NCBI GenBank assembly: GCA_963709405.1
Contig: CAVPXM010000018.1
Location: 1-38,335, forward strand
DNA length: 38,335 bases
DNA from: an uncultured Nitrososphaerales archaeon
GTDB lineage: Archaea > Thermoproteota > Nitrososphaeria > Nitrososphaerales > Nitrososphaeraceae
Direction: 5' to 3'
The translations under genes and the position numbers were made by a program. Under the pieces are notes generated by a model. The model made no database searches, was not told the DNA's origin, and was given only the letters and a program-made list of their open reading frames with translations. Below, piece by piece: positions 865 to 3,470 of the stretch (position 1 is the first letter of the stretch; every line of letters begins with the position of its first letter).

Positions 865-1131
865 TGTTTGAATATTTATTATTTGTAGGTGATCATCGCC
901 TATCTTCTTAAGCTTGCTTATTAGTACCATTGGAAAATTCATCATGAGTATTTTTGTATTTGTCGGCACTAAATTTTGACACCAAATATTGTCCTTTTTT
1001 ATCAATTAACCAAATCCTTACAAATTTTGAATCAATTTTAGAAGTTTTCTATGATCATTTGAAGTTTATTATAAGAATGACATTTTCTCTGCTCTGTTGA
1101 AAGACATGTAAAAGTCGCCCTCTATAATCCA

Positions 1132-1263
1132 TATGGTTAGCTGACCCCTTATCATGCATGACCACATAGGTCTAGTCTGTTGAATGGGGCATATTCTCGA
1201 AGCTGCTGTCAAAGTGAGCCTCGAGCTCTGATAGATGTATGCAGCTTAGTCCAGCTATCCATA
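1132..1263 (+). ncRNA. Candidate IS110 bridge RNA with target-binding and donor-binding loops
   Basis: Outer stem TATGGTTAGCTG (1132-1143) / CAGCTATCCATA (1252-1263). Loop 1: CCCC/GGGG stem (1145-1148/1186-1189) with apical GACC-ACATA-GGTC. Loop 2: AAGCTGC/GCAGCTT stem (1200-1206/1241-1247) with apical GAGC-CTCGA-GCTC. Loop 1 unpaired segments match the element flanks. Confidence 0.75.
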
Positions 1264-1304
1264 CTGAAAAAAAGAGAAGGAGGTGAGAAAAGAGGATACC
1301 AAAT

Positions 1305-2377
1305 ATGAAAAAGAAAGGATTGCTGAACTATATAGGAGTAGATATTGGAAAACGGAATTGTGTAGTTTGTATAATGGATTCGAATGGTTCTATAATCAAA
1401 GAAACTAATTACAGTAATACGTTGGAACAAGCTGAATCCTTTGCTTCGTCCATTAAGAGGAAGCATGTTGGTAAATCCACAGCAGTCTGTGAATCTACAG
1501 GTAACCTTTGGCTAAAGACATACCAGGCATTTGAGAAACATAACATTGATGTTAAACTGGCTAATCCTTTGAAAACTAAGGCCATTGCTGAGGCAAGAAT
1601 AAAGACCGATAAACTTGATGCTAGAACACTTGCACATCTACTTAGATCAGATCTTGTAGCTGAATGTTACATTGCAGACAGAGAGACTAGAGAAGATAGG
1701 TCATTACTTAGACTAAGAACAAATTTGGTACAGGATAGAACCAGAGTAATTAATAGGGTACATTCATTACTTGATAAATATGACATGAACTTTAATTATT
1801 CCAAGATTTTTGGCATAAAGGGATTACAATGGCTAAGGGATCTAAAAGTAACTGGCAATGACCAGATTTTGCTACATGAGTAATTCAGCAGATTGAATTT
1901 CTCACTAGAGGGATCAAAAATATTGAATCGAAGATAAGGATAGACGCATCGAATAATGAATCAGTTAAAATATTGATGAGTATGACAGGAATAAATTATT
2001 TCTCTGCAATGATGATATCATCTGAAATTGGCGATATTAGCAGATTTAGTTCACCTCAAAAACTTGTATCATGGGCTGGATTATGATGTCCATCAGTACA
2101 TCAATCTGGAAACTCATTGTATATGGGAAGGATGAAAGATGGTAATAAAAAGGTAAGATGGATATTAATTGAAGCAGCTAATACTGCATCTAGAACTGAC
2201 GGTAGATTAAGGAAATTCTATCTAAGACTGGCCAAAAGACATGGGCGTCACATTGCAATAACACATGTTGCAAATAAGATATGCACTATAATGTGGCATA
2301 TGCTAACATACAAGAGACTATACAATGAAAGAAAGATTGGCCTATATGAAACAAAACTTAAGAGGATCCAACTCTAA
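1305..2377 (+). pseudogene. IS110 recombinase/transposase, disrupted
   Basis: N-terminal DEDD motifs YIGVDIGK, CESTG and KTDKLDA. C-terminal Tnp20-like SEIGDISRF...WAGL*CPSVHQSG and LIEAA. Frameshift at ~1881 and in-frame TGA at 2084-2086. Confidence 0.9.
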
Positions 2378-2459
2378 GATAATAAAGACTGGTCTAAGCA
2401 GCATTAGATAATAGTAGGATATGCTAGCCATAGAGGGACTTTTACATAGATGCATGATC

Positions 2460-3275
2460 CATTAGGAAATTTTCTAGCTGTTAGATGTTCACCGAACAGT
2501 CTTTTAATAGAAGAGATTACTGTTTCTACCATCCACCTGCGCCCATAGCTCACGCTATGCTTCCATCTTTTGATGTTTGATTGCTGTTGTTTTACTACAG
2601 ACATGTCTCTAGCTTGACAGTTAGTTGACTTGACCTTGGAATTAATTACTTCAGGTCTTTATACGAGGTTTAATGTGGTTCTTTGATAGATATCTAAAAT
2701 TGTTATTGCTGTCGCACATACCATCTTCTAATACACCCTTAGATTATTATTTTCAGAAGCATTATCCATTAACTTACTTAACATCATGCCATCATCATGT
2801 ACCTCTTCACTTGTTACCTCCAAAGATAGGATTCTTTTCTTCTTGGTGTCAACTGCTACATGTATCTTTAGATATCCTTTTCTAACATGCCATTTATGCC
2901 GCATCCATTCTCCACGATTAGCTACTTTAATACCTGTGATCTCTAAAGCAATCATAATATCATTTCCTAATTTTTCATTGATTGTGATGTCCAGTCTGTT
3001 TGTACGTCTACTAATGGTCCTATAATGCGGTATGCCTGGTACCTCTTTACTCGCATGAGCTATAACTACACCTTGTGTTTGTCTATATGGTAGATGGAAA
3101 TAAGCTCTCATGTAACCTAGGATCTTAATAAAGGAATCTGGGCAGTTGTAGAGTTCACCAACTTTCCAAGATTCATTTGAGATAATTCGTGATCCCATCC
3201 ATCAAGTACATCAAAATCCAACAGTACCTGACCCCGCCTGACTGGTGATTCATTATAGGAATGACAGTCAATCAT
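2460..3275 (-). pseudogene. IS5-family transposase remnant
   Basis: Fragments in several frames: MIDCHSYNESPVRRGQVLLDF..., FHLPYRQTQG, TGIKVANRGEWMRHKW, LKIHVAVD, YGRRWMVETVISSIKRLFGE. Multiple frameshifts; 3' end truncated next to the IS110. Confidence 0.85.
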
Positions 3276-3470
3276 GTCAAATAGTTATTATATGTAAGCT
3301 AAATACAGATTGGTCAAATAATTTTGTTGACATTGAACGTTCTGGAAGTATGATTTATACTTAAATGTTTAAATAGTTCTACAATTATATAATAATTATA
3401 TTATGATTTCGCCGTGGAAAACATTATCCAATTTTTATAGAAGACAGATTAATGAGAGGATGACGAAATA

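What the first reader, a model, noticed from the sequence alone, without database searches (positions are those of the whole stretch)
1093..2458. Archaeal IS110 with a readable bridge RNA whose guides match both flanks of its own insertion site
Seen: the non-coding left end forms a 12-bp outer stem (1132-1143/1252-1263, one mismatch) enclosing two stem/internal-loop/hairpin modules. In module 1, the 5' unpaired strand ATCATGCAT (1151-1159) is the exact reverse complement of the right junction and flank ATGCATGAT (2450-2458). The 3' strand TCTGTTGAAT (1176-1185) matches the left flank TCTGTTGAA (1093-1101). The two guides overlap on AT, giving an empty site TCTGTTGA-AT-GCATGAT. Established: IS110 elements such as IS621 use a bridge RNA with target- and donor-binding loops. 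Inference: this is an archaeal, potentially reprogrammable RNA-guided recombinase system with a ~17-nt target. The characterised examples I know of are bacterial.
Basis: partly seen in the sequence, partly recalled or inferred. Interest (0 to 1): 0.92.

Follow-up and report, generated by a model that had tools for sequence, protein, structure and literature searches.

The report
Archaeal insertion sequence with guide RNA
This is a broken copy of a jumping gene from a soil ammonia-oxidising archaeon whose own small folded RNA spells out the 13-letter site where it landed, as in the bacterial "bridge RNA" elements, so it is a new archaeal member of a known kind.

Summary
Window 1100-2450 is an IS110-family element (DEDD_Tnp_IS110). 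Its 205-nt non-coding left end folds into a closing stem around two stem/internal-loop/hairpin modules.

Twelve uninterrupted sites in the same genome correct the details:
- The empty site is TCTGT-TG-CATGAT, 13 nt.
- It lies 10 nt inside the terminal repeat of an IS5-like element.
- The duplicated core is TG, not AT.

Across 79 related archaeal loci a covariance model finds the same RNA just upstream of the transposase (87 matches in 90 sources). Loop-1 guides track the flanks:
- Right side: 31 of 39 junctions match at 5 or more of 6 positions.
- Left side: 59 of 66 match at 4 or more of 5.
- Non-cognate means are 1.97 and 1.44, and 0 of 10000 permutations reach the observed totals.

The loop-2 3' strand equals the right end plus core.

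The guide order and the long subterminal inverted repeats are IS1111-like. The upstream position of the RNA is IS110-like.

The window copy is dead (one frameshift and one in-frame stop). Intact orthologues exist in relatives. RNA dependence is inferred, not shown.

The parts
1090..1097 (+). Tip of the IS5-like terminal repeat (TGC) followed by the left target half (TCTGT, 1093-1097)
   Evidence: The 12 uninterrupted copies read tgcTCTGTTGCATGAT with unrelated DNA before tgc. The 5 nt equal the loop-1 3' guide at 1176-1180.
1098..1099 (+). Left copy of the core dinucleotide TG
   Evidence: TG occurs once in empty sites and at both junctions of filled sites.
1100..2450 (+). IS110-family element between the two core copies (1351 bp), a decayed copy
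   Evidence: The own genome holds 13 further matches at 70-100% identity. The ends are fixed by the empty sites.
1106..1125 (+). Left subterminal inverted repeat
   Evidence: Reverse complement of 2430-2447 with a one-base indel (read). The same repeat is present in relatives.
1130..1263 (+). Bridge/seek-RNA-like structured RNA: closing stem 1132-1143/1252-1263 around two modules
   Evidence: Fold. Model R1 scores 140.7 bits here and gives 87 matches in 90 sources. Base pairs are kept in 90.4% of cells, and 21 of 26 pairs show changes on both sides.
1149..1159 (+). Loop 1 (target loop) 5' strand: guide ATCATG 1151-1156, core complement CA 1157-1158, U 1159. [quoted passage not shown]
   Evidence: Exact reverse complement of 2451-2458. 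Cognate match at 5 or more of 6 positions in 31 of 39 related junctions.
1173..1185 (+). Loop 1 3' strand: guide TCTGT 1176-1180, core TG 1181-1182, then AAT 1183-1185, of which AA matches the first bases of the element. [quoted passage not shown]
   Evidence: Identical to 1093-1101. Cognate match at 4 or more of 5 positions in 59 of 66 related junctions.
1207..1215 (+). Loop 2 (donor loop) 5' strand UGUCAAAGU. Its UGUC can pair with GACA at 1103-1106 of the left end. The pairing is weak and not contiguous with the core.
   Evidence: GACA/UGUC becomes TACA/UGUA and GATA/UAUC in relatives. The longest cognate helix averages 4.45 against 3.17 for non-cognate pairs, and 0 of 5000 permutations reach the observed total.
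1229..1240 (+). Loop 2 3' strand: ATAGA 1231-1235 equals the last 5 nt of the right end, TG 1236-1237 is the core, and UAU 1238-1240 can pair with the bottom strand opposite CAT, the start of the right flank, allowing one G-U
   Evidence: Identical to 2446-2452. In all 16 rows with an exact right-guide match, that match starts exactly 5 nt after the match of this 7-mer. Five distinct 7-mers are involved.
1305..2377 (+). Transposase pseudogene: open 1305-1883, 1-nt deletion near 1882, 3-nt insertion that makes an in-frame TGA at 2084-2086
   Evidence: ORFs. DEDD_Tnp_IS110, E 9e-31. Comparison with the C44 copy. Other copies in sequencing runs carry the extra C and lack the 3 nt (table 4).
2430..2447 (+). 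Right subterminal inverted repeat
   Evidence: Reverse complement of 1106-1125.
2451..2452 (+). Right copy of the core TG
2453..2458 (+). Right target half CATGAT, where the IS5-like terminal repeat continues
2459..3300 (-). IS5-like element (DDE transposase pieces on the minus strand) whose terminal repeat is the target. It extends beyond 3300.
   Evidence: More than 20 copies at 74-87% identity in the own genome. DDE_Tnp_1_5, E 5.7e-12.

Best explanation
Window 1100-2450 is a decayed copy of an IS110-family (DEDD recombinase) insertion sequence of a Nitrososphaeraceae archaeon. It moves by RNA-guided site-specific recombination of the bridge-RNA/seekRNA type.

The RNA and its guides:
- The non-coding left end encodes a ~135-nt RNA (1130-1263). 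A closing stem holds two internal loops.
- Loop 1 reads the target. [quoted passage not shown] - Loop 2 reads the element's joined ends. Its 3' strand equals right end plus core (ATAGA-TG). Its 5' strand pairs weakly and discontiguously with the start of the left end.

How it inserts:
- Recombination at the shared TG puts the circular element into a 13-nt site.
- For this subfamily that site lies 10 nt inside the terminal inverted repeat of an IS5-like element.

State of this copy: the transposase gene is broken, so the copy is not autonomous.

Shown here: the element borders, the empty site, the conserved RNA fold, guide-flank and guide-end covariation, and homology of the protein to IS621 and ISCro4.

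Inferred: that the region is made as RNA, that it binds the recombinase, that there is a circular intermediate, and that recombination depends on the RNA.
For: - Borders and empty site. There are 12 exact 13-mers in the own genome, all at IS5-like tips. About 0.14 would be expected by chance, by my arithmetic for 9.7 Mb of both strands.
- Protein. PF01548 plus PF02371. A profile of the family hits IS621 transposase (E 6.8e-18) and ISCro4 (7.2e-16) in the PDB, with the GxD, E-xTG, D-xx-D and SG motifs aligned.
- RNA. Model R1 matches directly upstream of the gene, on its strand, in all but one of the 87 matches in 90 sources; the one exception is a partial minus-strand match in L093. On the seed alignment 87.5% of cells pair and 13 of 26 pairs have changes on both sides. 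On the model-fitted alignment of 87 rows the figures are 90.4% and 21 of 26. No shuffle of 500 reaches the covariation score, and slid controls pair at 24-53%.
- Target loop, right side. 39 junctions were placed independently by the loop-2 7-mer plus an inverted-repeat check. They score 6/6 in 16, 5/6 in 15, 4/6 in 7 and 3/6 in 1. The non-cognate mean is 1.97.
- Target loop, left side. 66 junctions score 5/5 in 43, 4/5 in 16 and 3 or fewer in 7. The non-cognate mean is 1.44.
- Permutation. With one row per distinct guide (27 and 35 rows), 0 of 10000 permutations reach the observed totals.
- Own genome. Copies C44 and C61 carry guide TTTGT with flank TTTGT. C54 carries guide ATCGTG with flank CACGA.
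- Donor loop..
- The geometry fits published rules: both guides read towards the core and include it (Durrant 2024, passages). The order, with the top-strand complement first, is that of IS1111-type seekRNAs (Siddiquee 2024, passages).
Against: - No RNA ends, strand or level could be measured. RNA-library contigs cover 1090-1361 (X15) and 1141-1304 (X18, no differences), but such libraries can hold DNA and contigs show no ends.
- Rfam 15 gives no match.
- In this window alone the flank-only matches are weakly significant (63 of 3000 shuffles), and the fold is only z -1.95.
- Some junctions mismatch. 8 of 39 on the right score 4/6 or less. 7 of 66 on the left score 3/5 or less. Several of those left rows are truncated pieces or junctions misplaced by my rule.
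- The loop-2 5' strand pairs with only 4 nt in this subfamily.
- No intact transposase of this subfamily was found in the 91%-complete own assembly.
- The alignment used was fitted to the model and leans towards it.
Confidence: 0.9

Rival explanations
1. The window copy is still mobile as a non-autonomous element. Its ends and its guide RNA are intact, and a transposase supplied in trans by another copy moves it.
For: Both junctions, both inverted repeats and all four loop strands are intact, and the guides match the site perfectly. Copies 94-96% identical exist in the same genome.
Against: None of the own-genome copies examined has an evidently intact gene. C54 is frameshifted, C44 lacks a start codon, and the rest are fragments. 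The assembly is only 91% complete, so an intact copy may be unassembled.
Confidence: 0.15
2. The left-end structure is a cis-acting leader that regulates transposase expression. The protein alone recognises the target, and the guide-flank matches are side effects of a shared target.
For: The structure sits directly upstream of the gene and its ribosome-binding-like GGAGGTG. Small RNAs regulating IS110-family transposases have been proposed (mentioned in Durrant 2024, passage).
Against: The variable loop letters change together with the flanks over 27 and 35 distinct guide types, while the stems keep pairing. A leader has no reason to copy both flanks and the element's own right end in register with the core.
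Confidence: 0.03
3. The matches are chance or come from wrongly drawn borders. On this view the 'flanks' are part of the element and the loops merely repeat its ends.
For: Flank words are shared by several copies. A loose shuffle test on the window alone gives 2.1%.
Against: The 12 empty sites join the two flank halves exactly at TG. DNA beyond the IS5-like tip differs between copies. Relatives with other guides sit in other flanks.
Confidence: 0.01

Closest known systems
IS621 and other IS110-group bridge recombinases with a left-end-encoded bridge RNA (Durrant et al. 2024, PMC11208160; structures 8wt6 and others)
   Same: - DEDD/RuvC-like plus Tnp-domain recombinase.
- The RNA is encoded in the long left end, upstream of the gene.
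- The RNA has two simple internal loops, target loop first and donor loop second.
- Each loop has two guides that read towards a shared 2-nt core and include it.
- The guide for the left end is weak and discontiguous, as described for the IS621 right-donor guide (passage).
   Different: [quoted passage not shown] - The subterminal inverted repeats are long (18-20 bp), against 2-3 bp.
- The core is TG, or AG in some Bathyarchaeia copies (L059, L093, L080), not CT.
- A closing stem encloses both loops, where IS621 has a 5' stem-loop.
- The host is archaeal.
- Protein similarity is only remote (68 bits).
IS1111-group elements and their seekRNAs (ISEc11, ISPa11, ISKpn4; Siddiquee et al. 2024, PMC11187229)
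   Same: - Subterminal inverted repeats.
- The top-strand complement lies 5' of the bottom-strand match in the RNA (abstract and passages).
- The GL-P----SG motif and a transposase of about 350 aa (section 6; alignment).
   Different: - The non-coding region and RNA are upstream of the gene here. In IS1111-type elements they are downstream, with few exceptions such as ISMtsp17 (section 6).
- Here the donor guides sit in a simple internal loop. Many IS1111 predictions place them in a multi-loop (Durrant section 12).
- The protein is no closer to IS4321 (79 bits) than to IS621 (68 bits) or to an unnamed E. coli IS110-family protein (102 bits).
[quoted passage not shown]
   Same: Site-specific insertion at a fixed position inside the terminal inverted repeat of another mobile element.
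   Different: The target here is an IS5-like element of an archaeon. The RNA is on the other side of the gene (annotated IS4321 copy). Model R1 finds nothing credible in that IS4321 locus.

Membership tests
IS110 family (ISfinder sense; DEDD transposases) | Transposase with DEDD_Tnp_IS110 (PF01548) followed by Transposase_20 (PF02371) | tested here: met
   Window 1305-1880 matches PF01548 at E 9.2e-31. The sister copy L003 has both domains.
IS110 family (ISfinder sense; DEDD transposases) | Catalytic D, E, D, D and the SG serine are conserved and alignable to IS621 | tested here: met
   These are invariant columns in 7 family members. They align to IS621 and ISCro4 chains. The assignment of these residues as catalytic is recalled, not from a call. 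The window copy itself is truncated by a frameshift and a stop.
IS110 family (ISfinder sense; DEDD transposases) | Site-specific insertion with a short core at both junctions and no longer target duplication | tested here: met
   TG occurs at both junctions and once in 12 empty sites.
Bridge RNA / seekRNA-guided recombination | Conserved structured RNA with internal loops in a non-coding end, next to the recombinase gene | tested here: met
   87 matches in 90 sources, all but one (a partial minus-strand match in L093) directly upstream of the gene on its strand.
Bridge RNA / seekRNA-guided recombination | Two guides in one loop complementary to opposite strands of the two target halves, overlapping on the core, and co-varying with targets | tested here: met
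   (39 right and 66 left junctions; 0 of 10000 permutations reach the observed totals).
Bridge RNA / seekRNA-guided recombination | A second loop complementary to the element's joined ends (the donor) | tested here: met
   The 3' strand is in register in 16 of 16 rows, with 5 distinct 7-mers. The 5' strand is weak but above permutation controls.
Bridge RNA / seekRNA-guided recombination | The RNA is made, binds the recombinase and is required for recombination | not testable with these tools
   The only evidence is contigs from RNA libraries over 1090-1361 and 1141-1304. These do not prove transcription.
Bridge RNA / seekRNA-guided recombination | Match to a curated RNA family | tested here: not met
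   No Rfam 15 match at gathering score or at E up to 10. I did not establish whether Rfam 15 holds a bridge RNA family at all.
IS110 group (IS621-like) | RNA in the left end, which is longer than the right end | tested here: met
   The left end is 205 nt (1100-1304) and the right end 73 nt (2378-2450).
IS110 group (IS621-like) | [quoted passage not shown] | tested here: not met
   The order is reversed here (compared with Durrant 2024 passages).
IS110 group (IS621-like) | Only 2-3-bp subterminal inverted repeats | tested here: not met
   18-20 bp in the window. About 12 bp in relatives by my reading of the printed ends.
IS1111 group | Subterminal inverted repeats of 7-17 bp | tested here: met
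   1106-1125 against 2430-2447. Slightly longer than the quoted range.
IS1111 group | Long non-coding region and RNA downstream of the transposase gene | tested here: not met
   Upstream in all but one of the 87 matches, a partial minus-strand match in L093. The paper notes a few exceptions.
IS1111 group | [quoted passage not shown] | tested here: met
IS1111 group | Transposase related over its full length to that of IS1111 | tested here: inconclusive
   The family profile scores IS4321 at 79 bits (residues 65-332 only), IS621 at 68 bits and an unnamed E. coli IS110-family protein at 102 bits. No tree with ISfinder references was made.

The most novel reading that the evidence does not exclude
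This clade of Nitrososphaeria, Bathyarchaeia and perhaps haloarchaea may be an undescribed architectural variant of bridge recombinases. It combines:
- an RNA encoded in the left end, with simple target and donor loops, as in the IS110 group;
- the IS1111-type strand order and long subterminal repeats;
- one closing stem around both loops.

On this reading it is a living intermediate of the proposed move of the bridge RNA between element ends. Intact members would be active, naturally retargeted 13-nt-guided recombinases native to ammonia-oxidising archaea.
Probability: 0.35. Interest if true: 0.6.

Novelty: new member of a known kind. Interest (0 to 1): 0.5.

Why it matters
- RNA-guided recombination by IS110/IS1111 elements has been characterised in bacteria. 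This work shows, by sequence evidence only, that a widespread archaeal clade follows the same rules. It gives the readable code for that clade: 5+2+6 nt, core TG.
- The family mixes features used to separate the IS110 and IS1111 groups. That bears on how the guide RNA moved between element ends.
- To my knowledge (not from a call), ammonia-oxidising archaea lack genetic tools. Intact orthologues with known guides and targets (for example L017/L042, L018, L041) are natural candidates for a programmable integration tool that works in these hosts.
- It also explains a local pattern in this genome: one insertion sequence uses the terminal repeat of another as its landing pad.

Tried and rejected
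- Reading the IS5-like reading frame through the insertion, to use it as the empty site, was wrong. BLAST of the flanks showed that the IS5-like homology starts only at 2461, and that the window copy lacks about 90 bp. The motif scan then found the true tips.
- Rfam scans found nothing relevant.
- Folding the minus strand gave a similar energy (-46.3 kcal/mol, z -2.38). Energy therefore does not choose the strand. The strand was assigned from the position and direction of the model matches relative to the gene and from the published geometry.
- A contiguous match between the loop-2 5' strand and core plus left end (the IS621-style expectation) was sought and is absent in this subfamily. Only UGUC/GACA pairs here. 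Some Nitrosopumilaceae copies do have the contiguous form, GUGUU-CG against TG-AACAC.
- Placement in the IS1111 or IS110 group by profile score was inconclusive. No tree was built, for lack of named reference sequences.
- Read laying. Parts without cover in X16-X18 say nothing. RNA-library contigs cannot show ends, strand or level. No joints were found.
- Small word shares in runs X16-X20 are not used as evidence of habitat.
- Literature. Four searches found no paper in the held library that describes bridge or seek RNAs of Nitrososphaeria, or an experimentally tested archaeal bridge recombinase.
Full report
**What is in the window.**

The reported strings are there:
- 1151-1159 is the exact reverse complement of 2450-2458.
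- 1176-1185 matches 1093-1101 over 9 nt.
- 1132-1143 pairs with 1252-1263 with one mismatch.

RNAfold of the + strand gives a closing stem around two stem/internal-loop/hairpin modules (-44.1 kcal/mol, z -1.95). The minus strand folds about as well, so energy does not pick the strand.

The coding part is an IS110-family transposase (PF01548 at E 9e-31). It is broken:
- The frame is open only over 1305-1883.
- There is a 1-nt deletion near 1882.
- A 3-nt insertion makes an in-frame TGA at 2084-2086 (other copies in sequencing runs differ at exactly these places).

**Borders and empty site.**

The own genome (window = contig C18 of a 100-contig assembly, 91% complete) holds 13 further matches to the element. 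The right flank belongs to an IS5-like element present in more than 20 copies. Uninterrupted copies of that element end ...tgcTCTGTTGCATGAT..., with unrelated DNA before tgc.

Counts in the own genome:
- The 13-mer made of the window's left 7 nt and right 6 nt occurs 12 times, always at such a tip.

So the element is 1100-2450, the duplicated core is TG (1098-1099 and 2451-2452), and the target is TCTGT-TG-CATGAT. The site lies 10 nt inside the IS5-like terminal repeat.

Guide letters beyond the core thus match the partner DNA, as I recall for the 'handshake' positions of IS621. That is recall, not from a call.

**Is it more than chance?**

In the window alone, only weakly. In 63 of 3000 shuffles of the left end, a 7-nt and an 8-nt match to the two 20-nt flanks appear somewhere. 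The decisive evidence is comparative.

Within the same genome:
- Copies C44 and C61 have guide TTTGT and flank TTTGT.
- The window and C60 have TCTGT and TCTGT.
- C54 has guide ATCGTG and right flank CACGA.
- C54's left guide mismatches its flank by one letter.

Homologues at 65-68% and about 42% protein identity in other genera of the family (26 of 151 genomes searched, G000 included) have the same layout with other guides and other flanks.

**Family-wide test.**

A scan of one genome per species returned 79 loci. Their titles name Nitrososphaerales, Nitrososphaeraceae, Nitrosocosmicus, Nitrosopolaris, Nitrosopumilus, Nitrosotalea, Cenarchaeum and Bathyarchaeia. Three contigs are binned as bacteria.

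A covariance model built from 13 sequences matched 87 times in 90 sources. All but one match lie directly upstream of the transposase gene on its strand; the exception is a partial minus-strand match in L093.

The stems are supported:

| Alignment | Cells paired | Pairs changed on both sides | Shuffles reaching the covariation score |
|---|---|---|---|
| Seed, 13 rows | 87.5% | 13 of 26 | 0 of 500 |
| Model-fitted, 87 rows (leans to the model) | 90.4% | 21 of 26 | 0 of 500 |

Slid controls pair at 24-53%.

After removing duplicates, 85 of the 87 rows remained.

Right junctions were placed without using loop 1. The rule was an exact match of the loop-2 3' 7-mer downstream of the gene, next to an inverted repeat of the left end. 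This gave 39 of the 85 rows. The other rows lacked downstream sequence, lacked an exact hit or had gapped loop columns.

Left junctions were placed by the core plus the two following loop letters. This gave 66 of the 85 rows.

Results:

| Side | Junctions | Scores | Non-cognate mean | Distinct guides | Permutations reaching the observed total |
|---|---|---|---|---|---|
| Right (6 guide letters against the flank) | 39 | 6/6 in 16, 5/6 in 15, 4/6 in 7, 3/6 in 1 | 1.97 | 27 | 0 of 10000 |
| Left (5 guide letters) | 66 | 5/5 in 43, 4/5 in 16, 3 or fewer in 7 | 1.44 | 35 | 0 of 10000 |

The permutations used one row per distinct guide. Related copies are not independent, so these are not exact probabilities. 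Several single mismatches are G-U compatible.

**Donor loop.**

In all 16 rows where the right guide matched exactly, the match began exactly 5 nt after the match of the loop-2 3' 7-mer. Five different 7-mers are involved. So this strand equals right end plus core.

The loop-2 5' strand pairs with the start of the left end only in part:
- UGUC with GACA in the window.
- UGUA with TACA and UAUC with GATA in relatives.
- A contiguous GUGUU-CG against TG-AACAC in some Nitrosopumilaceae.

The longest cognate helix averages 4.45 against 3.17 for non-cognate pairs, and 0 of 5000 permutations reach the observed total. Durrant et al. describe a similarly discontiguous guide for the donor half, which I take to be the IS621 left end (passage).

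**Comparison with what is known.**

Durrant et al. 2024 (passages and section 12 read) state that:
[quoted passage not shown] - the core is included in both.

Here both guides also read towards the core and include it. [quoted passage not shown]

Siddiquee et al. 2024 (abstract, passages, sections 6 and 13 read) report exactly this reversed order for IS1111-type seekRNAs. Those elements also have subterminal inverted repeats, a GL-P----S(t)G motif and transposases of 330-350 aa. Their non-coding region lies downstream of the gene, with a few exceptions.

The present family has:
- 18-20-bp repeats in the window;
- GLCPSVHQSG;
- a transposase of about 350-378 aa;
- the RNA upstream of the gene, with simple internal loops.

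By profile score it is about equally far from IS4321 (79 bits), IS621 (68 bits) and an unnamed E. coli IS110-family protein (102 bits). Its group placement is therefore open. A haloarchaeal homologue (38% identity, 321 bits) has a weak model match at the same place.

Insertion into the terminal repeat of another mobile element recalls IS4321/IS5075. I saw that only as a reference title.

**Novelty.**

Archaeal IS110/IS1111 elements are on record:
- 662 archaeal recombinases in the bioRxiv 2024.06.21.599552 preprint (passages).
- 'Abundant in bacteria and archaea' in Siddiquee's discussion.

Bridge-RNA surveys also searched archaeal genomes (Durrant methods; the 2026 intergenic atlas preprint, passages). 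My four literature searches found no description of bridge RNAs in Nitrososphaeria and no tested archaeal system. Closed supplements may list this family.

I therefore file it as a new member of a known kind, with a mixed architecture that may prove to be a variant.

**Expression.**

Contigs from RNA libraries cover 1090-1361 (run X15) and 1141-1304 without a difference (run X18). This is a weak hint only.

**Verdict.**

The core, the empty site and the target length were wrong. The window copy is dead. The mechanism is inferred from strong covariation and homology, not from an assay.

Noticed in passing
G000 contigs C21:214031-214070 and C44:8074-8100 (loci L012, L013): These are 27-33-nt stubs of the element's left end, at the same kind of IS5-like tip. 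In C21 the stub runs straight into the right flank, so it looks like an internal deletion remnant rather than a clean excision.
   Followed up: partly
window 881-1066: The DNA left of the IS5-like tip is itself repeated in contigs C90 and C49. There the two halves lie about 1.1 kb apart, which suggests another mobile insertion.
   Followed up: no
window 2459-2480: The IS5-like copy next to the element lacks about 90 bp that full copies carry between two CATTAGGA-like words.
   Followed up: no
G000:C54:44222-45217: A second IS110-family reading frame, only 34% identical to this family, open over 354 aa. Its RNA and target were not examined.
   Followed up: no
L060 1367-1491 and its upstream flank: A Nitrosopumilus copy sits inside a (CTG)n(TTG)n microsatellite, with left guide GTTGT-TG matching the repeat.
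   Followed up: no
L056, L070, L099: Three of the 79 related loci lie on contigs binned as Gemmatimonadales, Kaiserbacteria and Poribacteria. This could be mis-binning or transfer to bacteria. It was not tested.
   Followed up: no
L126 1053-1183 (Natrinema plasmid record): A haloarchaeal homologue (38% identity) has a weak match of the RNA model just upstream of its gene (16.8 bits, E 0.007).
   Followed up: partly
window 1305; own-genome copies C54, C44, C60: Three sister copies have AGG where the window has the ATG start. Of the 15 related loci checked, six have an in-frame GTG that sits inside GGAGGTG (the EV in the printed translations).
   Followed up: partly
L059, L093, L080, L103 (Bathyarchaeia): These copies use AG instead of TG at the core positions of the loop strands. 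The junctions checked (L059, L093, L080) read AG as well.
   Followed up: partly
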